A stretch of DNA of 64,000 bases from Euryarchaeota archaeon UBA86. Lineage in GTDB: Archaea > Thermoplasmatota > Poseidoniia > Poseidoniales > Thalassarchaeaceae. Both the position numbers and the translations under genes were made by a program. The notes below the pieces were generated by a model. That model had not been told where the DNA came from. It made no database searches and saw only the letters and a list, made by a program, of their open reading frames with translations. Shown in pieces: positions 2,978 through 64,000 of this stretch (positions are counted from its first letter, which is position 1; every line of letters starts with the position of its first letter). The stretch covers positions 459 through 64,458 of the forward strand of contig DAQX01000008.1 in the NCBI GenBank assembly GCA_002503055.1, written 5' to 3'.

Positions 2978-3279
2978 AGGTACTCTAGCAAGTGATCGGA
3001 CCCGCCAACAAAGATTGGCTCATCACCTCTAAGGTCGAATAACACAGGCACGGTTCTGTGTCTTGTCTCTACTACCACTTGCTCCCTGAGTCCATCATAG
3101 AGATCGAGATTGACTTCTGTGTAAGTTAAACCGTGCGCTTCTAGGGTTCTTTCAGCCCTAGTACAATAGGGGCAGATTGTCTGAGAAAAGAATAGGAAGT
3201 CCGTATCTGCGGACTCGAGATGCTCACGCACCTGAGACAACTGGCTCCTCCTCCTCGTCGTCGCCGGACCACCATGCAC
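2974..3279 (-). CDS. Glutaredoxin-like thiol-disulfide oxidoreductase
   Basis: CPYC active site inside FFSQTICPYCTRAERTLE, followed by TVPVLF and the FVGGSDHLLEYL C-terminus typical of Grx. The listed GTG start (3279) overlaps the 3' end of the upstream gene by 56 nt. An in-frame GTG at 3231 would give only an 8-nt overlap. Confidence 0.8.
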   Translation of the reverse strand: MHGGPATTRRRSQLSQVREHLESADTDFLFFSQTICPYCTRAERTLEAHGLTYTEVNLDLYDGLREQVVVETRHRTVPVLFDLRGDEPIFVGGSDHLLEYL

Positions 3280-50756: not shown

Positions 50757-50841
50757 TGGTGCAGGGAGTAGGATTCGAACCTACGAAGCACTACGCACTG
50801 GGACCTAAACCCAGCCCCTTTGACCACTCGGGTACCCCTGC
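50757..50841 (-). tRNA. tRNA-Leu (anticodon UAG), class II with long variable arm, CCA encoded
   Basis: Hand folding of the reverse complement GCAGGGGTACCCGAGTGGTCAAAGGGGCTGGGTTTAGGTCCCAGTGCGTAGTGCTTCGTAGGTTCGAATCCTACTCCCTGCACCA. Acceptor stem is 7 bp (one G-U). Anticodon stem CTGGG/CCCAG with loop TTTAGGT. T arm GTAGG-TTCGAAT-CCTAC. Variable region is 13 nt. Confidence 0.93.
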
Positions 50842-51944: not shown

Positions 51945-52223
51945 TTGGCAAGGATTGATTGCCTCTTTACAATCTCAGGAGTTGAGCAAATGGCGTTTGA
52001 GGACCTCACCGAGTTCGAATTACGACTGCTGAAGTGGATTTCAGCATCCGACTTTGTCGGGGTTGCTTGGTCCACAAAGCGTGCAGCTGATGCGTTCAAG
52101 GTTGATGAAAAGGAGGTCTACGAGGCACTAGCATCCTTGACTGCCAAAGTTCGAGATAACATTCACATCTACTATGACGAAGGTGCAATCAGGATTGTCG
52201 CTGACGACTCACTGCCATCTTAG
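51945..52223 (+). CDS. Small hypothetical protein
   Basis: 92-aa ORF immediately after gpsA with no motif. The internal ATG (MAFEDLTEFEL...) may be the true start. It overlaps the convergent phnE-like gene end by 15 nt. Confidence 0.3.
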   Translation: MARIDCLFTISGVEQMAFEDLTEFELRLLKWISASDFVGVAWSTKRAADAFKVDEKEVYEALASLTAKVRDNIHIYYDEGAIRIVADDSLPS

Positions 52224-53090
52224 TATATCGGGAAGAATTACTCCCCACCAAGAAGGTCTATTCACATTGTCTTCTTCATTGAAGAATGATCGTGCATATA
52301 TTGAGAGGAAATCAATCAGTAGAACGGTGATGAAGATAATTATCAAGTAAGCCATGACTTTGTCATATTGCAGGAACTTGAGATATAGATTGATGTAATA
52401 TCCAATTCCACCGGCCCCTACTATTCCGATTACTGTACCGTGCCTTACATTGTACTCAAACATGAAAATAGCCTGTGAAATCAAATGATTTGCAGACTCC
52501 GGTATCACCACTCCAAGAGATTTCTCAAATTTCGATAACCCCATTGAATTCGCCGCATCTAGAGGGGCTTTGTCCATACCCTCGATAGCCTCGTACTGCA
52601 GTTTTCCTAAGTAACCGACCGTGTAAATTGTCATGGCAAAAATTCCCGATAGAGGTCCGAGTCCAATCAGAATTACGAAGAAAATTGCCCAGATTAGGCT
52701 TGGTAGACTTCTGCCAGCGGCTAAGATGAATCTGGCCAGGTATGAGATTCTTGGAGAGTTCAGATTTCTAGCCGCTAGAAGTGCTATTGGTAGAGATATA
52801 ATCATTCCAAGAATTGTTGAGACAAATGCTATCTTTATTGTCTCAATCATTCCAATCCAAGCAGTAGAGCAAGTAAAACTGAATGGTTCTGGAGTTGTAC
52901 ACACCGGATATGCCTGTGCCTCCAGAACCGTCCAATCTGGTGGCCACAAAGATTGATGGAAGAAGTCTATGAGGTTTTGAAAACTACCTGATAATCGGCC
53001 CCAATCGTCAATCATCCCGTTTAGAACAACAAAACCCGAAATGAATAGTGCGAGTAGGGCGAAAGAGTTCTTTCCGAAACCTGTAATCAT
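52209..53090 (-). CDS. phnE: ABC transporter permease, PhnE-like (phosphonate-type importer family)
   Basis: EAIEGMDKAPLDAANSMG, FEYNVRHGTVIGIVGAGGIGYYI and a terminal D..S...R pattern typical of PhnE. ATGA overlap with the ATPase gene. Confidence 0.8.
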   Translation of the reverse strand: MITGFGKNSFALLALFISGFVVLNGMIDDWGRLSGSFQNLIDFFHQSLWPPDWTVLEAQAYPVCTTPEPFSFTCSTAWIGMIETIKIAFVSTILGMIISLPIALLAARNLNSPRISYLARFILAAGRSLPSLIWAIFFVILIGLGPLSGIFAMTIYTVGYLGKLQYEAIEGMDKAPLDAANSMGLSKFEKSLGVVIPESANHLISQAIFMFEYNVRHGTVIGIVGAGGIGYYINLYLKFLQYDKVMAYLIIIFITVLLIDFLSIYARSFFNEEDNVNRPSWWGVILPDILRWQ

Positions 53091-53815
53091 AGGTTAACCT
53101 CCAGTGCTGTAGTTTCGGAAAGGAATGGATTTACCCTTCCGTCATCAATGACTAGCATCCTATCTGCCATCGATTTAGCACGAGATACATCATGCTCCAC
53201 TACGATTAGAGCTGCTTGAGTTGAACGAACATATTCAGTAACCTCGAATAATACACTATTCAATGTCTCTTCATCTAACTCACTGAGGAATTCATCTGCC
53301 ATAATCAGCCTAGGTGATTGTGCCAGAGAACGTGCAGTTGCAACTCTTCTCTGTTGCCCACCCGAGAGTCTGCGAATTGGTTCGTCAATCTTGTCTGTAA
53401 GGCCCATTCTTTCAATCGCATCTTCGGTCCTGGACAGTGACTCTGCCGACGGAGTAATTGTATGAGGATTGGTGTGGCCGGCTCTAGCCCCCATCATCAC
53501 ATTGTGCTTCACACTAGCATGACGAACCAGTCCCAATCTCTGAGGGATGTATCCTACGGATCCACGAGGCGGAAGTTTCGGAAGTATTGAATTGCAAACT
53601 TCCAATGTTCCTGTAATTGGACTTACTAATCCGGCAATTGTACGGAGAAGTGTTGTCTTGCCGACCCCTGAAGCTCCGGTGATAGCAACGATTTCTCCAG
53701 GGTATATTTTCAAATCTGGAACCTGTACTAGAGGATTTTTTGAATCAAATCCGATGGTCAAACCGCTCAATGAGACGATTGGTTTCGAATTCTGATTTTC
53801 ATTATTTCCTGTCAT
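53087..53815 (-). CDS. phnC: ABC transporter ATP-binding protein, PhnC-like
   Basis: Walker A GASGVGKTT, Q-loop GYIPQRLGL, signature LSGGQQRRVATARSL, Walker B LIMADEF. The PhnC assignment comes from translational coupling to the PhnE-like permease. ATG 53815 is preferred over TTG 53818. Confidence 0.8.
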   Translation of the reverse strand: MTGNNENQNSKPIVSLSGLTIGFDSKNPLVQVPDLKIYPGEIVAITGASGVGKTTLLRTIAGLVSPITGTLEVCNSILPKLPPRGSVGYIPQRLGLVRHASVKHNVMMGARAGHTNPHTITPSAESLSRTEDAIERMGLTDKIDEPIRRLSGGQQRRVATARSLAQSPRLIMADEFLSELDEETLNSVLFEVTEYVRSTQAALIVVEHDVSRAKSMADRMLVIDDGRVNPFLSETTALEVNL

Positions 53816-53966
53816 CAAATCGCCTTCCTTTATTCGTTGGATGCTTGATAATGTTAGACATAAATGAAATTCTGCTCATCTGCGATGCAAGATGGAATGG
53901 GTTTGCCCTTGCCGCGGATTGCACAGCAATCCGTGGACGACCAACATTTGAATGATTGTGTTAGAG

Positions 53967-53989
53967 AATTTTTCCCTTAGGGAAAAATT
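53967..53989. other. 23-nt perfect palindrome AATTTTTCCCT-T-AGGGAAAAATT in the 256-nt spacer between the lipoprotein gene and phnC
   Basis: Read directly from the sequence. The arms of 11 nt are exact reverse complements. It could be a terminator/attenuator hairpin or a protein-binding site. Confidence 0.45.
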
Positions 53990-54074
53990 GGGTTGACGGG
54001 GAGAAATCCAATTCTGAATTTCATAATTGTATGGGGTGTAACCTAAGATCTCCCCGCCAACTTTTCTATGATGC

Positions 54075-55334
54075 TTATTGGAGTGTGCCAATGTCATCAG
54101 CAGTGATGCCGAAAGCATCCCATGCAGGTTGTAAGTACATGCGAACATGTGCCTCGTAATCTGCTGTTGTGTCGCCATCATTGCTTAGATCGAATATGTC
54201 CACAATCTGAGCTGCTCCGTAGTCTGCGTAGTAGCCTGGCATTCCGCTTCCGGGGAACACAGAGGCGAATCCATTGCAGATTTCCTCGGTTGTTGCTGCT
54301 GCATATACGATGTGTCCTGCTCCCATGTTATAGCAGACCATCTCACCAGAACTTGGAGATTCGACCCAAGAGAATCCATCACAGTGTGCTGCTTCGCCTG
54401 CACCAATGTATGCCATTCCGTGAGTCTGGTTGTTGTAGCATGCATCTGTGTAGTCGGCCACATAAGCCTCGATTACTCTGAAGAATGCATGACCCTCGGC
54501 TTGGTGCTTATCGTAGTCGCCGTTTGCCTCGTCGAGATCAACAGTCATCTTTGATGCATACCTTACGGAAGCCTGTGAATAGACGATGACAATTTGCTTG
54601 AGAACCGCATCTCGAGCGTCAATCACGCCCTGCATGTCTTCATTCTCTAGTGCGGTTAGTCCGGCGTTCATTGCCGCGAGTGTGGCTACATTGGTTGCGT
54701 CGCCTGTTCCGAAGTTACCTCCTCTCTTAGCTGCAGTTGCGAAAGGTCCGCATCCGTCGTAGTCGTGGTCAGAATCATCAGGACCGTGATAGAATGCCCA
54801 TCCTTCGTCCCAAGCGTGCTGTGCATCGTCAGGGCCCCAGTTTCCTGCCTCGGCCTTGATTATGGCAGCATTGAGCTCGTGGATTGCATATGCGGTCATT
54901 ACACCGTTCTGAATTCCCTTCTCAACAGCTTGGTCTCTTACTGTGTCAGACTCGCCTGCGAATGCACCGGTGCCATCGATTGCCGCAGATACGAAGGAGT
55001 CCCATGATCCATCAACGCCATAATATGCGTCGTAGGCATGGTTCTTGCCAGAAGCGGATGCAAAGCCTTCCAAAGTCCTGAAGGATCCGTCGGACTTCTC
55101 AGCGTACTTTCCGTCCCCATAGATATCCGAAACTTCGTCCCAATCGTATGCTCCAGATAGATCCTTGATGTCACAAACATCACCCATCAGCATGCGATGG
55201 TTATCGACATTGGATGCGTACTCGTAGCCACCATCTTCGCCATCTAGTTCAATTTCATCATCACTTGTGCAACCTGCCAAAACAGATGCACAGAGAAGCA
55301 GTGTAATCAACATTGTAATTGTCTTTTTAGTCAT
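54075..55334 (-). CDS. Secreted acidic lipoprotein of unknown family, upstream of phnC/phnE-like genes; candidate metal-responsive binding protein
   Basis: Signal peptide MTKKTITMLITLLLCASVLAGC (lipobox). Conserved-looking segments FRTLEGFASASGKNHAYDAYYG, AWDEGWAFYHG and AEGHAFFRVIEAY. Two copies of the TTTAGG-N4-CCTAAA palindrome lie upstream. Confidence 0.6.
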   Translation of the reverse strand: MTKKTITMLITLLLCASVLAGCTSDDEIELDGEDGGYEYASNVDNHRMLMGDVCDIKDLSGAYDWDEVSDIYGDGKYAEKSDGSFRTLEGFASASGKNHAYDAYYGVDGSWDSFVSAAIDGTGAFAGESDTVRDQAVEKGIQNGVMTAYAIHELNAAIIKAEAGNWGPDDAQHAWDEGWAFYHGPDDSDHDYDGCGPFATAAKRGGNFGTGDATNVATLAAMNAGLTALENEDMQGVIDARDAVLKQIVIVYSQASVRYASKMTVDLDEANGDYDKHQAEGHAFFRVIEAYVADYTDACYNNQTHGMAYIGAGEAAHCDGFSWVESPSSGEMVCYNMGAGHIVYAAATTEEICNGFASVFPGSGMPGYYADYGAAQIVDIFDLSNDGDTTADYEAHVRMYLQPAWDAFGITADDIGTLQ

Positions 55335-55335
55335 T

Positions 55336-55351
55336 TTTAGGTCTCCCTAAA
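55336..55351. promoter_or_regulatory. Palindromic operator-like site TTTAGGTCTCCCTAAA (copy 1 of 4)
   Basis: TTTAGG-N4-CCTAAA inverted repeat, 2 nt upstream of the ATG of the 54075..55334 lipoprotein gene. Confidence 0.45.
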
Positions 55352-55379
55352 CCTTCGGACAGATATTCTATTTATCAAG

Positions 55380-55395
55380 TTTAGGTGGCCCTAAA
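55380..55395. promoter_or_regulatory. Palindromic operator-like site TTTAGGTGGCCCTAAA (copy 2 of 4)
   Basis: Same inverted repeat in the divergent intergenic region, 46 nt from the lipoprotein ATG and 75 nt from the DUF454 ATG. It is followed by ACTGTAAAAAAAAA, similar to the flank of copy 4. Confidence 0.5.
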
Positions 55396-55469
55396 CTGTA
55401 AAAAAAAATCTCTTTTTTACGAATAGGTCAGTTACATTAGATTATATTTGAAAGTACATCTCCATTGGC

Positions 55470-55877
55470 ATGAACGGTGTTCATGAAGCTAAACTCAGCG
55501 AGAATAAACTGAGTAGAGTATTTTGGTTTTCTTTAGGAGTAATATTCACGGGTATTGGACTGATAGGGATTGTAGTTCCGGGTTTACCAACGACTCCCTT
55601 GATGATTCTAGCTGCTGCGTGTTTTGCAAAGTCCAGTCAGAGATTCTATGATTGGATTATCAATAACAGAATGTTTGGAGAACATGTGAAGAATTACCGA
55701 GAAGGTAATGGAATTCCTAAGAGAAGTAAGCCGGTAATTTTGGGAACAATGTGGACATTTGTGTTGTTTGCTGTTTTCATTGCAATCCCAGACAGTGCTC
55801 CCGAAATTTCGCGAAACGCAACAGTGATTTTGGCCGTGATTGGGACCATTTTTATCCTTAGAATTCCTAATTTCTAG
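55470..55877 (+). CDS. DUF454 (YbaN-like) inner-membrane protein
   Basis: IGIVVPGLPTTPLMILAAACFAKSSQRFYDWIINNRMFGEHVKNYREG matches the YbaN/DUF454 N-terminal signature. 135 aa. Confidence 0.75.
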   Translation: MNGVHEAKLSENKLSRVFWFSLGVIFTGIGLIGIVVPGLPTTPLMILAAACFAKSSQRFYDWIINNRMFGEHVKNYREGNGIPKRSKPVILGTMWTFVLFAVFIAIPDSAPEISRNATVILAVIGTIFILRIPNF

Positions 55878-56901
55878 GTAAAGGATGCAAAAATGCATTC
55901 TTTACAAGTTGTCCCAATCCTTGAATCCAACTCGGATCATCATTCAGACAACTGACGACGGTCAATTCTTTTCCGCCATGTTCCAAGAAATGTTCGCGGA
56001 TTTCGATATCTAGCTCTTCCAATGTTTCCAGGCCATCGGCGAGAAATGCGGGGGAGACAATGACGATCTTAGATTTCCCATTTTTAGCCAAATGCTCAAC
56101 CATTTTTGTGGTTGATGGTTGTAGCCATTTTGCGGGACCAAGACGACTTTGGTAACTCATCGACCAGTCTGATTCAGCAATCCCCAGAGCTCCGACTACA
56201 GACAATGTTGTGAGCATGCAGTGGTGAGCATAGCACATGGAATTACCCTCTACTTTGAGTTCGCAGCAATGTTCAACCTTCTGGCAGTGTTTACCACTTG
56301 AGTCGGCGCGTTTCACATGAGAAACTGGGAGGCCGTGATAGGAGAACAATAAGTGCGCTCCATCCGTCAAATGTGGATGAATTGATTTTGCCAATGGATC
56401 GATGAATTCTGGGTTGGTTGGAAAATGTGGCAATTGAGTAATAGAAGGATTCCAATTCATCTCTTTGAGTTGAAAATATGCATGTTTCAGCGAAGATTCG
56501 GTTGTCGCCTGTGCATGATGAGGAAACATTGGAGCGAGTAATAGTTCGTCGATTCCTGATTGTTTCAATTTCTCTAATCCTGAACGAATACTAGGATTCC
56601 CATAGCGCATTCCGACTTCACAACGAATATCTCCCAAACTAGATTCTAATGCGTCAGTCATTCTTTGAGTGTAGACACGGAGAGGCGAACCTTCTTGCAT
56701 CCATATACTCTCATATCTAGGTGCAATTTTCTTTGGGCGTGTTCTGAGGATTATTCCATGTACCAAAAGGTGTCGAAGAGGAGTAGGGATATCGATAACA
56801 TCGGGGTCGAGTAGAAATTCTCGAAGATATGTGCGAACAGAGGGTACCGTAGGTTCATCGGGCGTACCGATGTTCATTATCAGAACGCCTCTCTTAACCA
56901 C
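55867..56901 (-). CDS. hemH: Ferrochelatase
   Basis: GVLIMNIGTPDEP, VRTYLREFLLDPDVIDIP, RPKKIAPRYESIW..GSPL, FSYHGLPV and YQSRLGP..WLQPST motifs. GTG start. Confidence 0.9.
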   Translation of the reverse strand: MVKRGVLIMNIGTPDEPTVPSVRTYLREFLLDPDVIDIPTPLRHLLVHGIILRTRPKKIAPRYESIWMQEGSPLRVYTQRMTDALESSLGDIRCEVGMRYGNPSIRSGLEKLKQSGIDELLLAPMFPHHAQATTESSLKHAYFQLKEMNWNPSITQLPHFPTNPEFIDPLAKSIHPHLTDGAHLLFSYHGLPVSHVKRADSSGKHCQKVEHCCELKVEGNSMCYAHHCMLTTLSVVGALGIAESDWSMSYQSRLGPAKWLQPSTTKMVEHLAKNGKSKIVIVSPAFLADGLETLEELDIEIREHFLEHGGKELTVVSCLNDDPSWIQGLGQLVKNAFLHPLPRN

Positions 56902-56946
56902 GCCTCTCGGAATAGTTCAGAGTATTAATTGGTTAGTTTTCAGTCG

Positions 56947-58158
56947 CTACAATTCTGAATTGACTTCAGCTAGTTGGATTATCGATCCATCCCATCCAAA
57001 AACAATCAATTGATTGGCATGACCCTTACCAAAACCAACTATCATTTTCCCTGCCGTACCTATGAGATTATTCTCCCAAGTTCCACTAGAATTACTAATT
57101 GCCCAAATCGATCCGGAGCAAAAGTCACCATAGATATACGAGTCTCGCAGAGAAGATGGCCCCCAGTCCATCCAGAAACCTCCTGTGATTGAGCAGTTTC
57201 CATTGGTGTGTGGATATGTATGAATTATCTCTGGAGTTGAAATTGAACTATTGAAATTACATTCCCCTCCAGCTACGAAATTTTGTGGACCTTCCATTTC
57301 AGACCAACCGAAGTTGGTTGATTGCAGCATAGGAACTAAATTCACTTCTTCCCAACAATTCTGACCTACATCTGAGATCCAGAGACGGTTATCGGTGTCC
57401 ATGTCGAATCTCCAAGGATTCCTCAATCCATAGTGTAGAATGTATGGATCTTCGCCTGGTGATGAGATTGATGTAGAAGGAGAAATTTGGTAACCATCAA
57501 AGGAAAAGAGCAGGATTGAACCTAGTTTTGTTGATTCGTTCTGGCCGTGCCCTTCCGGATCATTAGCACTTCCTCCGTCCCCTATACCCCAGAGAAATTC
57601 TCCATTTCCAATTGAAACTAGATGGCCTCCGTTGTGATTGCGGTAGGGTTGCTCGATTTCCATTAAAACGGTAATTGATTCTAAATTCAGATTGTTCTGA
57701 GCATCAATTTCAGCATATGCCAAAATTAGATTGGATTGGTTTGGGCCGTCACATGGCCCAGACTCTATGTATGAGAGAAGGACTTTGTTTGAGTTCTCAA
57801 AATCGTCATCGAAGGCAAATCCCAGCAGTCCTTGCTCCATGTGGCATCTTCCAATCAAGGAGCTCAAATCTGCTACATTTGTTCCTGGGTTATTTGCATC
57901 AAAATTGGATTCAGTTGGCCAAGAAATGATAAAACCGTTCAGATCAATAATCCATAACTCATCAGAATATGGATGTTCTAAAGATAGAATTGGATTCATT
58001 AGTCCGTTGAGATATTCTAAACATTCCAATTCATATTCTTCGACAATGTTGCAATCAGATGCAATGACATCTGGCCATTCGTATTCATCTGAATCATCAG
58101 AAAGGCATCCGCATAAGACGGGAACCACCAACAATAGGGAAATGGCCAGAACTCGCAT
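56947..58158 (-). CDS. Secreted lipoprotein, PQQ-dependent glucose/sorbosone dehydrogenase-like beta-propeller (GSDH/YliI family)
   Basis: Signal peptide MRVLAISLLLVVPVLCGC. NHNGGHL, GDGGSANDPEGHGQN, LGSILL, GLRNPWRF, DVGQNCWEEVN and NFGW motifs. ATG 58158 lies 2 nt after the stop of the upstream transferrin-like gene. Confidence 0.8.
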   Translation of the reverse strand: MRVLAISLLLVVPVLCGCLSDDSDEYEWPDVIASDCNIVEEYELECLEYLNGLMNPILSLEHPYSDELWIIDLNGFIISWPTESNFDANNPGTNVADLSSLIGRCHMEQGLLGFAFDDDFENSNKVLLSYIESGPCDGPNQSNLILAYAEIDAQNNLNLESITVLMEIEQPYRNHNGGHLVSIGNGEFLWGIGDGGSANDPEGHGQNESTKLGSILLFSFDGYQISPSTSISSPGEDPYILHYGLRNPWRFDMDTDNRLWISDVGQNCWEEVNLVPMLQSTNFGWSEMEGPQNFVAGGECNFNSSISTPEIIHTYPHTNGNCSITGGFWMDWGPSSLRDSYIYGDFCSGSIWAISNSSGTWENNLIGTAGKMIVGFGKGHANQLIVFGWDGSIIQLAEVNSEL

Positions 58159-58160
58159 AC

Positions 58161-59210
58161 TCAAGAGAAGTAAGCCTGTATTCCTGGTACATTGGACACC
58201 GCGGCTGCGTATGTCCCCAAGTGGTCTTCAGCGTTTGCAGGTGACATTCCTTCGGTGTTTAGCAAATCTTTCAGGATTTGTCTCCCCTCTTCATCATCAT
58301 CAAGTGCAATCACTGCATTTTGAACTGCTAGAACTGTATCTTCATCCATATATTCTGGATTGTAGAGAACTGGGTGACTTGGCGCTTGACCAAATGCAGG
58401 TAGCATCACCACATCGTCCCTATCCAAGCACCAATCATTAGCGTCTGAACCAGTACAATAGCTATCGTAAACAGTATCCTTGGCAAGGGTAATGTCTCCT
58501 GTTCCGTCCATCATGCACCTTAGGGCTCCCTTGTAGCCAGAGTAAGGTGTGCCGCCCTCAGGGATACTCGAGTCTTCTGAGAAGAAGTTGGTCACGGTGG
58601 CCCTGAGTGAATCAATATCATTGGGGTCTCCGATTACTTCCGCGTATTCATTACCGATTAGATAGCCCATTGGGATTAGCATACCAGCACTCTTGAGCCA
58701 ACCGGTGTGGCACGAAGTCTTGCCCTCCATAAGAGCAAAGGGGTCTGTTTCAGGATCATCATCGAGATAAGCTGCTGCCATGTCCGAATCTGCCCTTACC
58801 CAAGCTGCGGCATTGTAGTAAGTCCTCCCATCTGACTTATGCTCGGCTGCTAGCACATCTAGCCCATACACTTCCCAAGCTAACCAAGCTGCGGCTCCAT
58901 CCACGAACCCGATATCGGCGTTACCCTTGTCGATTGCCTCGATGGTTGCAGCCTCATCGGCTACTGCATAAATCTCCACATCCATGTCTAATAGTTCACT
59001 TAGTCTATCTGCAAGATGTTGTGGATTATTATCCCAGATGAGGTAAGTATCCTTAACCTCGTAAGCTACTACTAGGCAGTTTTCATCGTCATCACACTGA
59101 TCATAGTTCACATCAAAAATGAAGTACAGAGTAGATGCTATGATTACCATCCCTGCTGCAATATAAGTCCAATTTTCCTTTGCTGATAGGAACTCTCTTA
59201 CTCGGTTCAT
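58161..59210 (-). CDS. Membrane-anchored single-lobe transferrin-family / PhnD-fold iron-binding protein homologue
   Basis: N-terminal signal-anchor helix. Block-wise match by eye to the human serotransferrin N-lobe. NADIGFVDGAAAW matches EADAVTLDAGLVY. RTYYNAAAWVRADS matches TFYYAVAVVKKDS. GKTSCHTGWLKSAGMLIPMGYL matches [28 protein letters not shown] matches VANFFS. YSGYKGALRCMMDGTGDI matches YFGYSGAFKCLKDGAGDV. QAPSHPV matches QVPSHTV. ATG 59210 is preferred over ORF-track TTG 59222. Confidence 0.85.
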   Translation of the reverse strand: MNRVREFLSAKENWTYIAAGMVIIASTLYFIFDVNYDQCDDDENCLVVAYEVKDTYLIWDNNPQHLADRLSELLDMDVEIYAVADEAATIEAIDKGNADIGFVDGAAAWLAWEVYGLDVLAAEHKSDGRTYYNAAAWVRADSDMAAAYLDDDPETDPFALMEGKTSCHTGWLKSAGMLIPMGYLIGNEYAEVIGDPNDIDSLRATVTNFFSEDSSIPEGGTPYSGYKGALRCMMDGTGDITLAKDTVYDSYCTGSDANDWCLDRDDVVMLPAFGQAPSHPVLYNPEYMDEDTVLAVQNAVIALDDDEEGRQILKDLLNTEGMSPANAEDHLGTYAAAVSNVPGIQAYFS

Positions 59211-59240
59211 GGGGGTGCGCAAACGATATCAAATAAAATG

Positions 59241-59256
59241 TTTAGGGGGCCCTAAA
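59241..59256. promoter_or_regulatory. Palindromic operator-like site TTTAGGGGGCCCTAAA (copy 3 of 4)
   Basis: Same inverted repeat, 31 nt upstream of ATG 59210 of the transferrin-like gene. Confidence 0.5.
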
Positions 59257-59294
59257 TTAGAAAGAGATGTCTAATTTTATTCTAAATTAGGTAG

Positions 59295-61616
59295 CTAATC
59301 CAGTAATAGAAGACTTAGTTGCATTAGTGCAGCTCCGAAAGTCATTCCCACAATCATGAATCTGGGTCTTTCTTGGATCAACGCCTGGGGTATTAATTCC
59401 TTGAAACTGACTACTGCCATAATTCCTCCAACAAATGCCAATGACAACCCTACAATAAAGGGAGACAAAATTGATCCGAGAATAAGTAACGCGAACAATG
59501 CTCCAATTGGCTCGGTCAGGCCGGTTGCCAATGCAATCATTACAGCCTTAAATTTCCCTCCGCCACCGGCCTGAATGGGAGCTGCTACAGCTATTCCTTC
59601 TGGGATATTGTGCAGTCCGATAGCGACCATCAGAACGATCCCATATTGGGCTGATTCAAGTACGGCAACACCTATCGCAAGACCTTCGGGGAAGTTATGA
59701 ATTCCCAGAGCAATCGCCGTGAAAATTCCAGACATGTACATTTTCTTCTTCTCTGTCATTTCCTCGTCAATGTTGTTTTTTCTAAGTAGAATATTTGCTA
59801 GAAAAACTATAGATGCCCCGATTGCAAAAGAAATTGAAATCCCGATAAAGCCGAATTCCATTGCTTGCCCTAGCCATAAATCAAATATGGAAATGAGGAG
59901 CATTACGCCGGCAGCCATCCCAAGCATGAATGACATCATTTCTCTGCTTATTTCTTTAATTAAAATTACAATTAGGCCCCCTATGCCTGTCGCTAACCCA
60001 GCCATTAGAGCTATCATAAATGGGAAAACCCATGATTCGGAATTCCCTTCTAGACTTTTAATCTCAATTATTGGGCTATCTTCGGCTATTAGGTTCAAGG
60101 ATTGAACCATCTCAAGAACAAAATTAGTGACCAATTCAGCACCCTCTTTGTCGATTAATTCACCTTGTGAATCAATATCGAGATTATTGCTAAAGTCTGT
60201 ACAAAATGGCCAAATCTCTGAGGAGGTTGCATCCAATCTCTGGAAGCCTATGCCAACTGTGTCGATGCCTGCGTGATTGAAACTCCTATGGCTGCTACAG
60301 CCTTGAATAGAGTCAATGGAAGGATTGTTAGCGATAACATTAGCAGAATATTGACCGGCCCCTCCAAAAGTAGTCTTGGCAGAAGATTTGGCTTTAGAAA
60401 CAAGAACATTGTTGGATGCCTCTACTGTAATTGAGTCAATGCCCATGGCTTCATTGAGAATTGCTGAATCGATGTTGATGTATAACTCCGGCTTTTGACT
60501 TTCTTCGATCTGATCAAGGAAAGCTTGACTACTGAGCCATCCAAGTTCCTCACCGCCCCATGAAACAAATTTCACAGTTCTATCTAGTTCTCTACCATTC
60601 AATTGTCTAGCGATTTCGACAAGTTGTGCCACGCCTATCGAATTGTCTACTTGACCTTCGCTCAAGTAAGAAGTGTCGTGATTGGCGCCAATCATTACTG
60701 ATTTGGAGGATTTTCCGGGCAATTCTCCAGTTACAATCTGTACATTAGTGACGCCGGTCTGGGCCGCTTCCCAATTGCCGTCAAGAATCGCATACTTTGA
60801 TCCATCCGATTCTGCCTCATCGATGAACTCTATGAAAGTCTGAGCAGTTTCATGTGTGATGAATATGAATGGTATCAAATCGTAATCTGGGAAAGCTTCG
60901 GGGAATGAGATTAGCCTATCATCATCAGTCAGAACTACTATCGGTTCAAAGTATGTCGATTCCAGTTCCTCCTCGTAAATCATCAGAACTGATGCTCCCG
61001 CTTCTATTGCTTCTCTGTAATAATCAGAAAGGCTTCTGCCAGTATTCTCTATTTCATGGTGAATCAGAATTGCCTTATCCGTAAGATCTCCCGAGTTGGT
61101 AAAATCTTCCGAGGTCCCACTTCCTAGATTTACCATCTCGCTATCATGTTTGTGAGAACCTCCAGAATAACCAAGAAAAGTGAATGCATCCCTGTGCTCC
61201 AAGTCGCCTGTAGAAGAAATCTGAACTCTGCCTGTCCCTGCCGAACCATCTGGAAGTCCGGGGATATTGCCGATACCCTGCTCTATTTGCGCATGCATAT
61301 GGATTGGTTCATCACCTTCATCGGGCTCTACAAGCCATGAGCCCCAAATCTCAAATTCTGTAATTTGTACATCAGATAGTCCTGCATCTTCAAACATCTC
61401 TGAGATAATAATTGATGCTTCCATCTCCGAGTTAGAACCAGGAACTCTGGGCCCAAGGGAACTTAGATTACTTGACTCCTCTAGAATTTTATCTCCATCT
61501 GAATGAAACTCAATAGATGGCTCGTGAAGAATGAAACCAGCTGCAAATGAAGAAATGAGTACGACGGCGGAAATTATTCCAAGAGTGTTTATTCTCCTAT
61601 AGGGGTCGTATTCCAT
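59295..61616 (-). CDS. Fusion protein: N-terminal TM anchor + extracytoplasmic PA-domain-containing M28-family metallopeptidase-like domain + C-terminal ZIP (ZupT-like) metal transporter
   Basis: M28 features: LGPRVPGS, VTGELPGK..VMIGANHDT, GQVDNSIGVAQLVEIAR, FVSWGGEELGW, YINIDS, SSHRSF. A PA-like insert (GDLTDKAILIHH...AIEAGASVLMIY). The ZIP part (about the last 245 aa) has GIHNFPEGLAIGVA and GLHNIPEGIAVAAP. Confidence 0.85.
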   Translation of the reverse strand: MEYDPYRRINTLGIISAVVLISSFAAGFILHEPSIEFHSDGDKILEESSNLSSLGPRVPGSNSEMEASIIISEMFEDAGLSDVQITEFEIWGSWLVEPDEGDEPIHMHAQIEQGIGNIPGLPDGSAGTGRVQISSTGDLEHRDAFTFLGYSGGSHKHDSEMVNLGSGTSEDFTNSGDLTDKAILIHHEIENTGRSLSDYYREAIEAGASVLMIYEEELESTYFEPIVVLTDDDRLISFPEAFPDYDLIPFIFITHETAQTFIEFIDEAESDGSKYAILDGNWEAAQTGVTNVQIVTGELPGKSSKSVMIGANHDTSYLSEGQVDNSIGVAQLVEIARQLNGRELDRTVKFVSWGGEELGWLSSQAFLDQIEESQKPELYINIDSAILNEAMGIDSITVEASNNVLVSKAKSSAKTTFGGAGQYSANVIANNPSIDSIQGCSSHRSFNHAGIDTVGIGFQRLDATSSEIWPFCTDFSNNLDIDSQGELIDKEGAELVTNFVLEMVQSLNLIAEDSPIIEIKSLEGNSESWVFPFMIALMAGLATGIGGLIVILIKEISREMMSFMLGMAAGVMLLISIFDLWLGQAMEFGFIGISISFAIGASIVFLANILLRKNNIDEEMTEKKKMYMSGIFTAIALGIHNFPEGLAIGVAVLESAQYGIVLMVAIGLHNIPEGIAVAAPIQAGGGGKFKAVMIALATGLTEPIGALFALLILGSILSPFIVGLSLAFVGGIMAVVSFKELIPQALIQERPRFMIVGMTFGAALMQLSLLLLD

Positions 61617-61645
61617 GGCTTCCGCAAGAGAAGTGGTTCTAATAA

Positions 61646-61661
61646 TTTAGGTAGCCCTAAA
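61646..61661. promoter_or_regulatory. Palindromic operator-like site TTTAGGTAGCCCTAAA (copy 4 of 4)
   Basis: Same inverted repeat, 30 nt upstream of ATG 61616 of the M28-ZIP fusion gene, followed by ACTACAAAAAAAA. Confidence 0.5.
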
Positions 61662-62276
61662 CTACAAAAAAAATAGCCATTTTGGCTTGGAAAGTAACCA
61701 AAGCAATTTTGATTTTGAAGCATTAAACAAGTCTACCCGGTGTCTTCTGACCCTAACCAACTTAGTATTCGATTTTCGGAGTCTCTCATGCCAATATTCT
61801 CTGGAGTTCTTTGGGAAGGATTTCTCAAATCTAGCCGGAGACGCCATTAGAGTAAAGTTTTGATTTCTTCTGACATTTTCCACTACCTTTTCTCTACCTT
61901 CTTCAGTAAGCAGGCTTTTCACCTCGATCATTACTTTCTCTGGTCTTTCATTGAGTATTTCTAGAACTTCACTTAGAGTTGGAATAGAAATTCCTAGTGT
62001 CCTTCCGAGTTCTTGGATTTGGACTAAAGTGAGATGATTTAGAATGTGTGATTTACCATCTATGTGAATCTCATCATCATGGAATACGAATATCTCAGAA
62101 TCTGAAGATTCGTGAATATCAAACTCCCAATATCTGAAATTTCGAAGATTGAAGATGGTATTTTCAATTGAATCTTTTAGAGATTGGATTGTATTCTCGA
62201 GTGGAGTTCCAGAACCTCCTAATCTGTGACCAAGATTCTTCAATAATTCACCTATATATCGCGAAGATATCGACAT
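61662..62276 (-). CDS. Glycerophosphodiester phosphodiesterase-family (GDPD) protein, short form
   Basis: GHRLGGSG..LENT and WEFDIHESSDSEIFVFHDDE match the GDPD HR...EN / E.D...D...v.HD pattern. AT-rich gene. Confidence 0.6.
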   Translation of the reverse strand: MSISSRYIGELLKNLGHRLGGSGTPLENTIQSLKDSIENTIFNLRNFRYWEFDIHESSDSEIFVFHDDEIHIDGKSHILNHLTLVQIQELGRTLGISIPTLSEVLEILNERPEKVMIEVKSLLTEEGREKVVENVRRNQNFTLMASPARFEKSFPKNSREYWHERLRKSNTKLVRVRRHRVDLFNASKSKLLWLLSKPKWLFFL

Positions 62277-62318: not shown

Positions 62319-64000
62319 ATGATGCTAACCTGCGCTAGAACACTCATGAAGATGGCACAGGTTGTCGTTGCCCTCTCGCTCGTCTTTGTCCTGGTGATGA
62401 GTTTAGTTTGTCCCTACAGTCATTCGGACAGCAACCTCACAGAGGAGTCTCTGCGAATGGAGCAATTCGGTGGCGGAGGTTCTCTAGAGGATCAGTGCGG
62501 CTCGATAACATTCGAAGATATGTTCGAGTATACCAATGCGGAGTTTGTTTTCAATGTCAATCCGAATTGGCAAACCGCTGAAGTACAGGCAGTTGCTTGG
62601 ATTAACGAATCTTTGGCAGATGACATCAGGACTACTATGGACGAGTTCATGGCCGAGATTGATCCGAATGACGGAGGCGATGGTTGGTTGTCGACCGATG
62701 AGCGCGAAATCTTCAGAGCGTTGGCCAGCGAGTGTATAGAGCACACTCTTACTCGGATAGGAATTAGAGATGGCGACTATCACAGAGGTGGCGAGGGAGT
62801 CAGTTGGAAGAATACAAGTTGGGAAGAAGACGGAGTCGAAATTCAAGAATTCAACATTGTACCACCTAGGCACTCAGAGATTAGAGAATGCACATCCGCT
62901 TTCGGGAACGAATGTGAGGAAATCCCGGTTATACCCGACGATAATCGAGACTGTGATACCGACATTTCTTCCTCTGATGGAATTGATGAATGCCGTGTCC
63001 AGCTTTGGTTGAATGCCACAATGACCATCCCGGGTGTGACTGATGGAAATCAATTTACTCTGGCCCTCAATGCTTCGAATATGACTCGATCAAGTCTAGA
63101 GTTCAACTTCCCGGTTACACCTGATTTACGCCTAGATATGTGGGAGGAGTGTGAGGGTAGAGATGTAAGCTTCGATGAGGAGTCGTCAATTCCCGCTCCA
63201 ATTCGTGGAACCTGTTTAGGCGATGGTTCCTCATCGTATACTCTCGAAGAACTAGAAACACTCACGGGTGAAGAAAGACTTCGATTCACTATTATGCCAG
63301 ATGCAGAAATCGATGACTGGCCACTAGGTGAGGACTTATTCGCTGATTTCACTACCGCCCCTATTCCCGTAGATGAGCATCCAGAATGGACCGTGGATGC
63401 TCCAGTCGACGGTGCATGGTTCCCGTCCCCGAGCGGTGGTCAGCACATATGGGCAGACTGGGATGACATATCTTCTTGGTTCTCAGATGAGGGTAGTGTG
63501 ACTCAATTGGATATTCGTTGCACTGGTGCAGATTCTCTACAATTGAGCGAGGGTGCTGACCGTTCATTATGGGCCGAGATTCCTAGAGGAAGTCCCGGAG
63601 AAGTCACATGCGAAGCAGTGGATTCTGCGGGCCAGAGTTCTGGTCAGAGAACCTGGAATCTTGGAGTTCCATTCTCTATTGGCACATCTCAAGCGACTTT
63701 GGCTGAACCGCATCCGATTTCTATCACGCCTACTTCACAATGGCCTGCATTGCAACTTGAATTGGCTTTGATTCAGGACGGTCAGGCATCCACACCGACA
63801 TCCATCACCTTCGAAGAAGAAGTTGTGGTAGATTTGACGGCATCGAACATGGTGCCGGGAGAAGTTGATGTCTGGATAAGAATACAAGGAAGTTCGAATG
63901 TGTACTCAATGGAACATATCTATGATATTGATCTGACTAAAGAGAGTTCTCCGCCAATGCTGACTATCACCAATTCAGATTGGGATGGAGCAGAATGGTC
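62319..64000 (+). CDS. Large acidic, Cys-containing secreted protein, 3' end beyond window (absent from the ORF track because no stop codon lies in the window)
   Basis: I translated the + frame starting at ATG 62319 (an in-frame TGA lies at 62304). It is open to nt 64000. It begins MMLTCARTLMKMAQVVVALSLVFVLVMSLV (signal-like) and is followed by acidic, N-glycosylation-sequon-rich sequence. ATG 62346 is an alternative start. Confidence 0.6.
   Translation, partial: MMLTCARTLMKMAQVVVALSLVFVLVMSLVCPYSHSDSNLTEESLRMEQFGGGGSLEDQCGSITFEDMFEYTNAEFVFNVNPNWQTAEVQAVAWINESLADDIRTTMDEFMAEIDPNDGGDGWLSTDEREIFRALASECIEHTLTRIGIRDGDYHRGGEGVSWKNTSWEEDGVEIQEFNIVPPRHSEIRECTSAFGNECEEIPVIPDDNRDCDTDISSSDGIDECRVQLWLNATMTIPGVTDGNQFTLALNASNMTRSSLEFNFPVTPDLRLDMWEECEGRDVSFDEESSIPAPIRGTCLGDGSSSYTLEELETLTGEERLRFTIMPDAEIDDWPLGEDLFADFTTAPIPVDEHPEWTVDAPVDGAWFPSPSGGQHIWADWDDISSWFSDEGSVTQLDIRCTGADSLQLSEGADRSLWAEIPRGSPGEVTCEAVDSAGQSSGQRTWNLGVPFSIGTSQATLAEPHPISITPTSQWPALQLELALIQDGQASTPTSITFEEEVVVDLTASNMVPGEVDVWIRIQGSSNVYSMEHIYDIDLTKESSPPMLTITNSDWDGAEW

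What the first reader, a model, noticed from the sequence alone, without database searches (positions are those of the whole stretch)
52209..61661. Candidate composite iron-acquisition locus: PhnCE-like ABC importer without PhnD + orphan lipoprotein + ferrochelatase + beta-propeller + transferrin-like protein + M28-ZIP
Within about 9.5 kb, almost entirely on the minus strand, the order of transcription is as follows. First the M28-ZIP fusion (operator). Then the transferrin-like gene (operator), the GSDH-like beta-propeller after a 2-nt spacer, and hemH after a 45-nt spacer. Then the divergent DUF454 gene. Then the orphan lipoprotein (two operators), a 256-nt spacer containing a perfect palindrome, and phnC-phnE with an ATGA overlap. 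No canonical PhnD binding-protein gene accompanies phnCE. Either the transferrin-like protein (PhnD fold) or the lipoprotein could therefore be its cognate substrate-binding component. That would make this an Fe(III)-binding-protein-dependent ABC importer running in parallel with a ZIP route, with ferrochelatase as an iron sink. I do not know of this combination as a described system.
Basis: inference. Interest (0 to 1): 0.85.

Follow-up and report, generated by a model that had tools for sequence, protein, structure and literature searches.

The report
Archaeal transferrin-based iron uptake regulon
This stretch of a marine Group II archaeon (Poseidoniales) is a real, operator-marked set of probable iron-uptake genes built around a true transferrin relative, and the transporter that databases call a "phosphonate" importer here probably brings in iron.

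Summary
All nine genes, their spacings and the ATGA overlap are as described. A 16-bp palindrome, TTTAGG-N4-CCTAAA, occurs exactly four times in 64 kb (0.07 expected). All four copies lie at the starts of the lipoprotein, transferrin-like and M28-ZIP genes.

- The "orphan lipoprotein" is a FEA1/phytotransferrin-family lipoprotein. Its model is all-helical, so it is unlikely to be the ABC binding protein.
- The transferrin-like protein has the full transferrin iron site (D108, Y136, Y230, H283), an anion site with Lys for Arg, and a conserved transferrin disulfide.
- In 39 related Poseidoniales loci with phnC and phnE, a transferrin-like gene lies within 300 bp in 26. It is often a two-lobed lipoprotein that this genome lacks.
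- The operator is conserved: 190 sites in 1.18 Mb of relatives, about 1 expected.
- M28-ZIP homologues at 53-63% identity carry the operator, and five are divergent from the transferrin/propeller pair.
- hemH shares the operator in five lineages.

No phosphonate-breakdown genes appear among the called genes examined. The regulator, the propeller's role and iron binding itself are untested.

The parts
52209..53090 (-). PhnE-type ABC permease (293 aa)
   Evidence: TIGR01097 PhnE scores 227 bits against a cutoff of 216.7; Pfam BPD_transp_1. Public records name it PhnE. It overlaps the ATPase gene by 4 nt.
53087..53818 (-). ABC ATPase, PhnC-like (242-243 aa)
   Evidence: Pfam ABC_tran 6.3e-28. The PhnC model TIGR02315 scores 128 bits, below its cutoff of 266. 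No operator lies upstream in this genome. Relatives have one about 30-40 nt upstream.
53967..53989 (.). Perfect 11+11 palindrome AATTTTTCCCT-A-AGGGAAAAATT in the FEA1-phnC spacer
   Evidence: It is not seen in the corresponding spacers of L005, L050, L070 or L080. Function unknown; its T-run may be part of the terminator.
53992..54061 (-). Long GC-rich hairpin followed by a T-run, just after the FEA1 stop; probable terminator or stabiliser
   Evidence: Arms 53992-54004 and 54049-54061. RNA fold -27.8 kcal/mol, z-score -3.5. Equivalent arms are present in L005 and L050.
54075..55334 (-). FEA1-related (phytotransferrin/ISIP2a family) lipoprotein, 419 aa, lipobox LAGC
   Evidence: NF038033 scores 345.7 bits (cutoff 250); Pfam Fea1 4.6e-19. 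The AF2 model is all-alpha, pLDDT 84, with no PDB fold match. Present in all 80 related loci.
55336..55351 (.). Operator copy 1 (TTTAGGTCTCCCTAAA), 1 nt upstream of the FEA1 ATG
55380..55395 (.). Operator copy 2 (TTTAGGTGGCCCTAAA), upstream of a TATA-like GATAAATAG, in the FEA1/DUF454 divergent region
55470..55877 (+). DUF454 (YbaN-like) small membrane protein, divergent from FEA1
   Evidence: Pfam DUF454 3.3e-35. The DUF454-hemH pair lies next to FEA1 in 5 related loci.
55867..56901 (-). Ferrochelatase HemH (336-344 aa)
   Evidence: Pfam Ferrochelatase 9e-99; TIGR00109 scores 252 bits (cutoff 124.6). In 5 relatives it is divergent from FEA1 and shares the operators.
56947..58164 (-). GSDH/HHIP-like beta-propeller lipoprotein (403-405 aa, lipobox LCGC), 2 nt after the transferrin-like gene
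   Evidence: Pfam GSDH 2e-20. Nearest PDB sequences are HHIP and soluble glucose dehydrogenases, E about 1e-8. The transferrin/propeller gene pair is adjacent in 29 of 80 loci and in 5 M28-ZIP loci.
58161..59222 (-). Single-lobe transferrin-family protein with an N-terminal membrane anchor (349 aa from the ATG at 59210)
   Evidence: Pfam Transferrin 2.6e-16 and Phosphonate-bd 3.4e-23. Best PDB sequence hits are lactoferrin and ovotransferrin, 6e-22. D108, Y136, T173, K177, A179, G180, Y230 and H283 align with human transferrin D63, Y95, T120, R124, A126, G127, Y188 and H249. The C118-C194 disulfide is conserved. The AF2 model (pLDDT 83.6) matches transferrin lobes and PtxB/AioX about equally.
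59241..59256 (.). Operator copy 3 (TTTAGGGGGCCCTAAA), just upstream of a TATA-like TTTTATTT before the transferrin-like gene
59295..61616 (-). M28 peptidase-like ectodomain fused to a ZIP (ZupT-like) metal permease, 773 aa
   Evidence: Pfam Peptidase_M28 4.9e-20 and Zip 3.7e-26; ZupT model 189.7 bits, below its cutoff of 252. Homologues at 53-63% identity carry the operator in 10 of 10 loci that include upstream sequence. Five of them are divergent from the transferrin/propeller pair.
61646..61661 (.). Operator copy 4 (TTTAGGTAGCCCTAAA), abutting the GDPD stop, upstream of M28-ZIP
61662..62276 (-). Short GDPD-like protein (204 aa), a conserved upstream neighbour of the transferrin-like gene
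   Evidence: Pfam GDPD 3.8e-07, 30.9 bits (cutoff 23.6). The order GDPD, transferrin-like, propeller recurs in relatives.

Best explanation
This is part of an iron-acquisition regulon of Marine Group II archaea. An unidentified transcription factor recognises the palindrome TTTAGG-N4-CCTAAA. The sites abut the TATA box or the start of leaderless genes.

The conserved core is a membrane-anchored, single-lobe transferrin-family protein. It would bind Fe(III) through Asp, two Tyr and His, together with a synergistic (bi)carbonate. It is made together with a GSDH/HHIP-like beta-propeller lipoprotein.

Transferrin-like proteins, not the FEA1 lipoprotein, serve as the substrate-binding proteins of the PhnC/PhnE-type ABC importer. 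In this genome that is the single-lobe form. In most relatives there is also a two-lobed lipoprotein encoded directly upstream of phnC. The transporter therefore takes up iron, not phosphonate.

The FEA1-related lipoprotein is an accessory surface iron-binding or iron-concentrating protein, as in algae. The M28-ZIP permease is a second, probably Fe(II) or divalent-metal, route tied to the same transferrin/propeller pair. Ferrochelatase is an occasional member.

Shown: gene content, the operator and its conservation, synteny, the ligand set and the predicted folds.

Inferred: iron as the signal and substrate, the pairing of binding protein with permease, and the direction of regulation.
For: Operator:
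- 4 sites in the window against 0.07 expected.
- 190 sites in 1.18 Mb of 80 Poseidoniales loci against about 1 in shuffles. 171 of them lie at the 5' ends of FEA1, phnC, the single-lobe transferrin-like gene, hemH or GDPD.
- The flanking T and A, which the search did not require, are 95% and 93% conserved.
- The operator precedes M28-ZIP homologues in 10 of 10 loci.

Iron:
- FEA1 family membership.
- The transferrin ligand set D-Y-Y-H is kept in 28-30 of 30 orthologues, and the transferrin disulfide is kept.
- Best PDB sequence hits are transferrins, at 6e-22.
- Relatives place Peripla_BP_2, FecCD, an ATPase and a HugZ-like heme oxygenase between FEA1 and phnC.
- hemH shares the operator.
- Bacterial FEA1 lipoproteins sit beside FbpA/PhnS-superfamily binding proteins with fused permeases, with ferritin nearby.

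Pairing of binding protein and permease:
- A transferrin-like gene lies within 300 bp of phnCE in 26 of 39 loci and within 3 kb in 31. The 7 loci with no transferrin-like gene detected all end less than 1.7 kb beyond phnCE.
- The transferrin-like model has a periplasmic-binding-protein fold.
- The FEA1 model is all-alpha with no significant PDB match, binding proteins included.

Not phosphonate:
- The PhnD and PhnC equivalog models are far below their cutoffs.
- No C-P lyase or phosphonatase families appear among the genes called for the parts of the window examined or among the proteins of relatives that were scanned.
Against: - There is no direct evidence of iron binding, iron-responsive expression or transport.
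- PhnE does pass the curated PhnE cutoff (227 against 216.7 bits).
- The GDPD-like gene and GpsA are conserved neighbours and could point to phosphorus metabolism.
- The anion-site Arg is replaced by Lys.
- In this genome phnCE lacks the operator and lies 4.3 kb from the transferrin-like gene, behind a probable terminator. Its membership in the regulon here rests on relatives.
- The transferrin/propeller pair is also found divergent from M28-ZIP with a shared operator. It might feed ZIP rather than PhnCE, or both.
- The regulator is unknown. No DtxR, Fur or MntR homologue was seen nearby (this is a weak test).
- A PhnE-type permease carrying Fe(III) has no precedent that I know of.
Confidence: 0.6

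Rival explanations
1. The transferrin-like protein and the propeller work with the M28-ZIP permease, not with PhnCE. The transferrin-like protein captures Fe(III) at the surface. The GSDH-like quinoprotein-type propeller helps to reduce or release it. ZIP imports Fe(II). PhnCE is an unrelated anion importer that merely sits nearby.
For: - In five metagenomic loci at 53-55% identity, M28-ZIP is divergent from the transferrin/propeller pair and shares a single operator with it. In the window they are in tandem.
- The propeller is always coupled to the single-lobe transferrin-like gene.
- phnCE in the window has no operator.
- M28 metal-ligand positions vary between lineages (NHD for HHD in the window; PTES/PAES for VDN in one group). 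That is compatible with a non-catalytic docking role.
Against: - None of the 80 FEA1-anchored loci has M28-ZIP within about 10 kb, yet 33 have the single-lobe transferrin-like gene and 34 the propeller. ZIP therefore cannot be the general partner.
- phnC carries the operator in relatives. It is divergent from the single-lobe gene with a shared operator in 9 loci, and directly downstream of the two-lobed form in 21.
- PQQ binding or reductase activity of the propeller is untested.
Confidence: 0.17
2. The annotation is right. This is a phosphorus-scavenging system: a PhnCDE-type importer of phosphonate, phosphite or another oxyanion, with a divergent PhnD-family binding protein, next to a glycerophosphodiesterase and G3P dehydrogenase. 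The operator belongs to a phosphate-responsive or general nutrient regulator.
For: - PhnE passes TIGR01097.
- PF12974 scores higher than PF00405 on the binding protein (82.7 against 60.2 bits).
- The fold search finds PtxB, AioX and ArrX as strongly as transferrin.
- The GDPD-like gene and GpsA are conserved neighbours.
- Tully 2019 lists phosphonate transport as a core trait of Marine Group II.
Against: - A complete, conserved Fe(III) ligand set and a transferrin disulfide.
- The operator is shared with FEA1, ZIP and ferrochelatase, and the cluster includes Fec-type and HugZ-like genes in relatives.
- PhnD scores 31 bits against a cutoff of 261, and PhnC 128 against 266.
- No phosphonate catabolic families appear among the called genes examined.
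Confidence: 0.1
3. The regulon responds to, and transports, another metal such as zinc or manganese, or metals in general, rather than iron specifically.
For: - The ZIP domain is ZupT-like, and ZupT carries several divalent metals by established knowledge.
- The M28 domain is a zinc-enzyme fold.
- A review notes that expression of the Ostreococcus Fea1 protein is modulated by zinc.
Against: - The Asp/Tyr/Tyr/His plus anion site is the Fe(III) site of transferrins.
- The heme oxygenase-like, FecCD and ferrochelatase associations point to iron.
Confidence: 0.08

Closest known systems
FbpABC / FutABC / HitABC Fe(III) ABC importers (FbpA, the so-called 'bacterial transferrin')
   Same: The proposed working principle is the same. 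A two-domain binding protein with tyrosinate ligands and a synergistic anion hands Fe(III) to an ABC permease and ATPase, and the genes are co-regulated with other iron genes. Bacterial FEA1 lipoproteins sit next to binding proteins and permeases of this FbpA/PhnS superfamily.
   Different: Here the binding protein belongs to the transferrin (PF00405) and PhnD (PF12974) families, not SBP_bac_1/6/11. The permease is a single 293-aa PhnE-type protein, not the fused double-domain FbpB. The proteins are anchored to an archaeal membrane. A two-lobed form exists in relatives.
Eukaryotic transferrins (serum transferrin, lactoferrin, ovotransferrin, melanotransferrin; single-lobe forms)
   Same: It passes the PF00405 threshold. 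PDB sequence hits reach 6e-22. The D-Y-Y-H ligands, the Thr/Ala-Gly anion site and the C118-C194 disulfide are conserved. Identity to transferrin lobes in the structural alignment is 21-24%. Two-lobed paralogues exist.
   Different: It is archaeal and membrane-anchored. Lys replaces the anion-binding Arg. It is genetically linked to an ABC importer or a ZIP permease rather than to receptor-mediated endocytosis. The C-lobe of the two-lobed form has lost the ligands.
PhnCDE phosphonate ABC transporter
   Same: PhnE meets its equivalog cutoff. The ATPase resembles PhnC. The binding protein hits PF12974. The gene order of ATPase then permease, with an ATGA overlap, is the same.
   Different: The PhnD and PhnC equivalog models are not met. 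The binding protein carries an Fe(III) site. No C-P lyase or phosphonatase genes are nearby. The operator is shared with iron genes.
Algal FEA1 / diatom ISIP2a phytotransferrin
   Same: Same protein family (PF07692, NF038033), cell-surface location and association with iron uptake. A ZIP/IRT-like route runs in parallel, as described for Ostreococcus and diatoms in PMC7676907.
   Different: It is a prokaryotic lipoprotein with an extra C-terminal domain (residues about 296-419). It is encoded beside ABC importers rather than used with endocytosis. Its model is all-alpha. That does not resemble the phosphonate-binding-protein origin cited for ISIP2a in that review.
DtxR/IdeR iron boxes of bacteria and archaea
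   Same: A palindromic operator at the promoters of iron-uptake genes. By recollection, the terminal pentamers TTAGG...CCTAA are the same as in the 19-bp IdeR/DtxR consensus TTAGGTTAGCCTAACCTAA.
   Different: The pentamers are separated by 4 nt, not 9. No DtxR-family gene was found in the window or in 1.2 Mb of related loci, so the regulator is unassigned.

Membership tests
Transferrin family (PF00405) | Passes the family's curated sequence threshold | tested here: met
   60.2 bits against a gathering score of 20.3. Lactoferrin and ovotransferrin are the top PDB sequence hits, at 6e-22.
Transferrin family (PF00405) | Fe(III) ligands Asp, Tyr, Tyr, His at the human transferrin 63/95/188/249 positions | tested here: met
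   D108, Y136, Y230 and H283. Conserved in 28-30 of 30 Poseidoniales single-lobe orthologues. The reference sequence was recalled from memory and checked for the right residues at the canonical positions.
Transferrin family (PF00405) | Synergistic-anion site Thr120 / Arg124 / Ala126-Gly127 | tested here: inconclusive
   T173, A179 and G180 are present. Arg is replaced by Lys (K177) in 28 of 30 orthologues.
Transferrin family (PF00405) | Two-domain lobe fold and a conserved intralobe disulfide (human transferrin C118-C194) | tested here: met
   The AF2 model (pLDDT 83.6) matches transferrin N- and C-lobes at E about 1e-14. C171 and C236 are conserved in all lobes.
Transferrin family (PF00405) | Reversible, carbonate-dependent Fe(III) binding | not testable with these tools
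   Needs purified protein.
PhnCDE phosphonate ABC transporter | PhnE permease equivalog (TIGR01097) | tested here: met
   227 bits against a cutoff of 216.7, which is marginal.
PhnCDE phosphonate ABC transporter | PhnC ATPase equivalog (TIGR02315) | tested here: not met
   128.3 bits against a cutoff of 266.1. PotA scores slightly higher.
PhnCDE phosphonate ABC transporter | PhnD binding-protein equivalog (TIGR03431) | tested here: not met
   31.2 bits against a cutoff of 261.1 for the window protein, and 62.7 bits for the two-lobed relative.
PhnCDE phosphonate ABC transporter | Genomic link to phosphonate catabolism (C-P lyase, phosphonatase) | tested here: not met
   No such Pfam families appear among the genes called for the parts of the window examined or among the proteins of relatives that were scanned. 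The rest of the genome was not examined.
FbpABC-type Fe(III) ABC importer | FbpA-family binding protein (SBP_bac_1/6/11) and fused double-domain FbpB permease | tested here: not met
   The binding protein hits PF12974 and PF00405 only. The permease is a single 293-aa BPD_transp_1 domain.
FEA1 / ISIP2a family | Passes the Pfam Fea1 and NCBIfam FEA1-related lipoprotein thresholds; has a lipobox | tested here: met
   69.2 bits against 25, and 345.7 bits against 250. The N-terminus reads ...VLAGC.
ABC substrate-binding protein (role proposed for the lipoprotein) | Two-lobe alpha/beta periplasmic-binding-protein fold | tested here: not met
   The model is helices plus a small sheet, pLDDT 84 and pTM 0.81. 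No PDB match has E below 0.001.
ZIP / ZupT metal permease | ZIP domain threshold; ZupT equivalog | tested here: inconclusive
   Pfam Zip 92.5 bits against 35.1 is met. ZupT NF003243 at 189.7 bits against 252 is not met.
Iron-responsive regulon | Expression changes with iron supply; identified iron-sensing regulator | not testable with these tools
   Only the shared operator is shown. No regulator was found.

The most novel reading that the evidence does not exclude
Marine Group II archaea, the most abundant archaea of the surface ocean, possess genuine transferrins in single-lobe and two-lobed forms. These act as the binding proteins of a PhnCE-type ABC importer and are also linked to a ZIP permease. 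The 'phosphonate transport' counted as a core trait of the group would then be carbonate-dependent Fe(III) uptake. These proteins would be the prokaryotic link between PhnD-type anion-binding proteins and eukaryotic transferrins.
Probability: 0.4. Interest if true: 0.85.

Novelty: new variant of a known kind. Interest (0 to 1): 0.72.

Why it matters
Iron limits much of the ocean, yet I found no paper in the searchable library that describes how Marine Group II archaea obtain it. Ten searches found none linking FEA1, ISIP2a or transferrin to this group.

If the reading is right, four things follow:
- A core trait reported for the group, phosphonate transport (PMC6336850), is mis-assigned.
- Transferrin-type, carbonate-dependent iron capture is not confined to eukaryotes. 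Archaeal iron uptake might then share the carbonate sensitivity described for diatom phytotransferrin.
- The single-lobe and two-lobed archaeal proteins give a concrete, testable intermediate for the proposed descent of transferrins from PhnD-type binding proteins.
- The 16-bp operator gives a handle to define an archaeal metal regulon and to find its unknown regulator.

Surveys of marine binding-protein transcripts that leave out PF00405 (PMC11485210) would have missed these proteins.

Tried and rejected
- **FEA1 lipoprotein as the ABC binding protein.** Rejected on fold and on adjacency, which holds in only 6 of 39 loci.
- **A remnant of the two-lobed transferrin gene in the 256-nt spacer, or a copy elsewhere in the window.** tblastn finds only the single-lobe gene.
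- **A degenerate operator upstream of phnC in the window.** None with 3 or fewer mismatches.
- **The spacer palindrome as a conserved element.** Not seen in the four relatives' spacers I read.
- **A regulator nearby.** DtxR, Fur and MntR queries, recalled from memory, found nothing in the window or in 1.2 Mb of loci. The 18 operator sites away from known genes (as re-listed; one search's tally gave 19) pointed to no regulator.
- **The M28 ectodomain as a transferrin-receptor-like domain.** Its nearest solved relatives are ordinary M28 aminopeptidases, and the transferrin receptor is not among the hits. Ligand positions do vary between lineages, so this stays a speculation only.
- **Rfam.** Only a tRNA in the window.
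- **PDB sequence search with FEA1.** No hit.
- **Literature.** McQuaid 2018 could not be read, so I could not check whether it already included these archaeal sequences.
Full report
**1. Observation**

Their families are clear:
- a PhnE-type permease (TIGR01097, 227 bits against a cutoff of 216.7);
- an ABC ATPase (PhnC model 128 bits, below its cutoff of 266);
- a 419-aa lipoprotein;
- DUF454;
- ferrochelatase;
- a GSDH-like beta-propeller;
- a protein that hits both Phosphonate-bd (3.4e-23) and Transferrin (2.6e-16);
- an M28-ZIP fusion;
- a short GDPD-like protein.

The stated spacings hold: the ATGA overlap, 256 nt, 2 nt and 45 nt. The 'operators' are one motif, TTTAGG-N4-CCTAAA. It occurs four times in 64 kb, at 55336, 55380, 59241 and 61646. 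The expectation is 0.07, and none of 100 shuffles reached four. No copy with 3 or fewer mismatches lies elsewhere in the locus. Reading the promoters, each site lies just upstream of a TATA-like element about 25-30 nt before the ATG. At the lipoprotein gene a second site lies 1 nt from the ATG.

**2. The 'orphan lipoprotein'**

It is a FEA1-related lipoprotein (NF038033, 345.7 bits against a cutoff of 250; Pfam Fea1 4.6e-19). This is the family of algal FEA1 and diatom ISIP2a phytotransferrin (background from PMC7676907). The family has 498 clusters at E of 0.001 or better in 1.8 billion representatives. An AlphaFold2 model built on 20 diverse members is confident (pLDDT 84, pTM 0.81) and almost entirely helical. 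Foldseek finds no solved structure at E below 0.001, and a PDB sequence search finds nothing. It therefore does not have the two-lobe alpha/beta fold of ABC binding proteins.

**3. The transferrin-like protein**

Its best PDB sequence matches are lactoferrin and ovotransferrin, at 6e-22. I aligned it to the human transferrin N-lobe. That reference was recalled from memory, and I verified that it carries D63, Y95, T120, R124, A126, G127, Y188 and H249. The window protein has D108, Y136, T173, K177, A179, G180, Y230 and H283. These residues are kept in 28-30 of 30 Poseidoniales orthologues, with Lys in place of the anion-binding Arg. The transferrin disulfide C118-C194 is conserved in every lobe. 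Its AF2 model (pLDDT 83.6) has an N-terminal membrane helix and a binding-protein fold. The fold matches transferrin lobes (21-24% identity) and PhnD-family proteins PtxB, AioX and ArrX (14-18% identity) with equal significance. Public records name orthologues 'PhnD/SsuA/transferrin family substrate-binding protein', 'ABC-type phosphate/phosphonate transport system substrate-binding protein' or even 'melanoma-associated antigen p97'.

**4. Relatives**

A scan of one genome per GTDB species returned 80 loci with FEA1 identity of 43-84% (best aligned segment). Nearly all are labelled Poseidoniales or Marine Group II archaea, of both families. I annotated them with the window's proteins.

The commonest layout is: propeller, single-lobe transferrin and GDPD on one strand, then FEA1, a two-lobed transferrin, PhnC and PhnE on the other, followed by GpsA.

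The two-lobed gene encodes a roughly 680-720-aa lipoprotein with two transferrin-like lobes. Its N-lobe partly keeps the ligands and its C-lobe has lost them. This genome has no such gene and no remnant of it.

Of 39 loci with both phnC and phnE, a transferrin-like gene lies within 300 bp in 26 and within 3 kb in 31. The seven loci with no transferrin-like gene detected all end less than 1.7 kb beyond phnCE. FEA1 directly abuts phnC in only 6.

Another group of relatives places six genes before PhnE: FEA1, a large surface protein, Peripla_BP_2, FecCD, an ATPase and a HugZ-like heme oxygenase, then PhnC and PhnE. hemH with DUF454 lies divergent from FEA1, sharing its operators, in five loci.

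**5. Operator conservation**

The core TTAGG-N4-CCTAA occurs 190 times in the 1.18 Mb of these loci, against about 1 in shuffles. Of these, 171 lie at the 5' ends of FEA1, phnC, the single-lobe transferrin gene, hemH or GDPD. The outer T and A, which the search did not require, are 95% and 93% conserved. In relatives phnC has its own operator. In this genome it does not. Here a stable hairpin (-27.8 kcal/mol, z-score -3.5) plus a T-run follows FEA1, so co-regulation of phnCE in this genome is not shown.

**6. M28-ZIP**

None of the 80 FEA1-anchored loci has it within about 10 kb. A metagenome scan found 11 homologues at 53-63% identity. All ten that include upstream sequence carry the operator immediately upstream. 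In five, M28-ZIP is divergent from the transferrin/propeller pair with a single shared operator, and GDPD lies on its other side. The fusion is therefore a recurrent member of the regulon, tied to the transferrin/propeller pair in two different arrangements. Its M28 metal-ligand positions are not uniformly kept: the window has NHD for HHD, and one group has PTES or PAES for VDN. Its nearest solved relatives are ordinary M28 aminopeptidases.

**7. Outside the archaea**

FEA1-related lipoproteins of Acidimicrobiia and Chloroflexi lie beside binding proteins of the FbpA/PhnS superfamily. In one case a fused double permease and ferritin are nearby. This fits an accessory role for FEA1 next to an importer that has its own binding protein. 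The family assignments of those neighbours are all below their curated cutoffs.

**8. Phosphonate reading**

PhnE marginally passes its model. PhnC and PhnD do not. The genes called for the parts of the window examined encode H+-pyrophosphatase, proteases, riboflavin and shikimate enzymes, a xanthine-dehydrogenase-type complex and MoxR/DUF58. No phosphonate catabolism family appears among them. Tully 2019 lists 'the transport of phosphonates' among core traits of Marine Group II (PMC6336850). Rinke 2018 does not mention iron. No paper in the library links FEA1, ISIP2a or transferrin with this group. One study of marine binding-protein transcripts excluded PF00405 (PMC11485210).

**9. Conclusion**

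The locus is a real, conserved regulon that is most simply read as iron acquisition. Its core is the transferrin-like protein with its coupled propeller.
- The best-supported mechanism is that transferrin-like proteins are the binding proteins of the PhnCE importer, with FEA1 as an accessory and M28-ZIP as a second route. I put confidence in this at 0.6.
- The main rival is that the transferrin/propeller pair serves ZIP rather than PhnCE (0.17).
- The annotated phosphonate role is less likely (0.1), and another metal less likely still (0.08).
- Still unknown are the regulator, the roles of the propeller and GDPD, actual iron binding, and whether the archaeal transferrins are ancestral to the eukaryotic ones or acquired from them.

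Noticed in passing
L054:11874-13970; L023:11261-13579; L010:11383-13554; L022:3718-5859: Relatives encode a two-lobed transferrin-like lipoprotein of about 680-720 aa directly upstream of phnC. Its N-lobe partly keeps the iron ligands and its C-lobe has lost them. The window's genome lacks the gene.
   Followed up: partly
window 53992-54061: A long GC-rich hairpin followed by a T-run lies right after the FEA1 stop (-27.8 kcal/mol, z-score -3.5). Equivalent arms are present in L005 and L050. It is probably a terminator or a transcript-stabilising element.
   Followed up: partly
L049:11364-17622 (also L013, L042, L047-48, L060, L068, L073, L078): In some Poseidoniales, FEA1 is followed by a roughly 780-aa surface protein, then Peripla_BP_2, FecCD, an ABC ATPase and a HugZ-like heme oxygenase, before phnC and phnE. 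This looks like a heme or siderophore uptake module inside the same island.
   Followed up: partly
window about 62320-64000 (+), runs off the end; L001:983-3016; L023:7881-9911: A 676-677-aa secreted or membrane protein with no Pfam hit lies beside the GDPD-like gene. In L023 it is divergent from FEA1 and shares the operator region.
   Followed up: no
window 59295-61616 and L092-L102: Metal-ligand positions of the M28 domain vary among M28-ZIP homologues: the window has NHD for HHD, and L092-L096 have PTES or PAES for VDN. The peptidase site may not be essential in all lineages.
   Followed up: partly
window 48141-50660 (-): An 839-aa, extremely acidic secreted protein with faint EF-hand and LDL-receptor-A matches. 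It is a conserved neighbour beyond GpsA in many relatives.
   Followed up: no
window 3224-7081 (-): A 1285-aa fusion of an S8 subtilisin-like peptidase with an MFS transporter, going by the Pfam labels of the identical public gene.
   Followed up: no
window 50760-50841 (-): A tRNA gene. It is the only Rfam match above threshold in the window.
   Followed up: no
P0319, P0321, P0323 and others: Many bacterial FEA1-related proteins carry an extra N-terminal PF26580 domain. One is named 'cupredoxin-like copper-binding protein' by JGI.
   Followed up: no
L062:4930, L069:13360, L076:19208, L082:19222, L083:13369: A few operator copies lie between a sugar-nucleotidyltransferase-like gene and a small multi-pass membrane protein of unknown function. 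These may be further regulon members.
   Followed up: no
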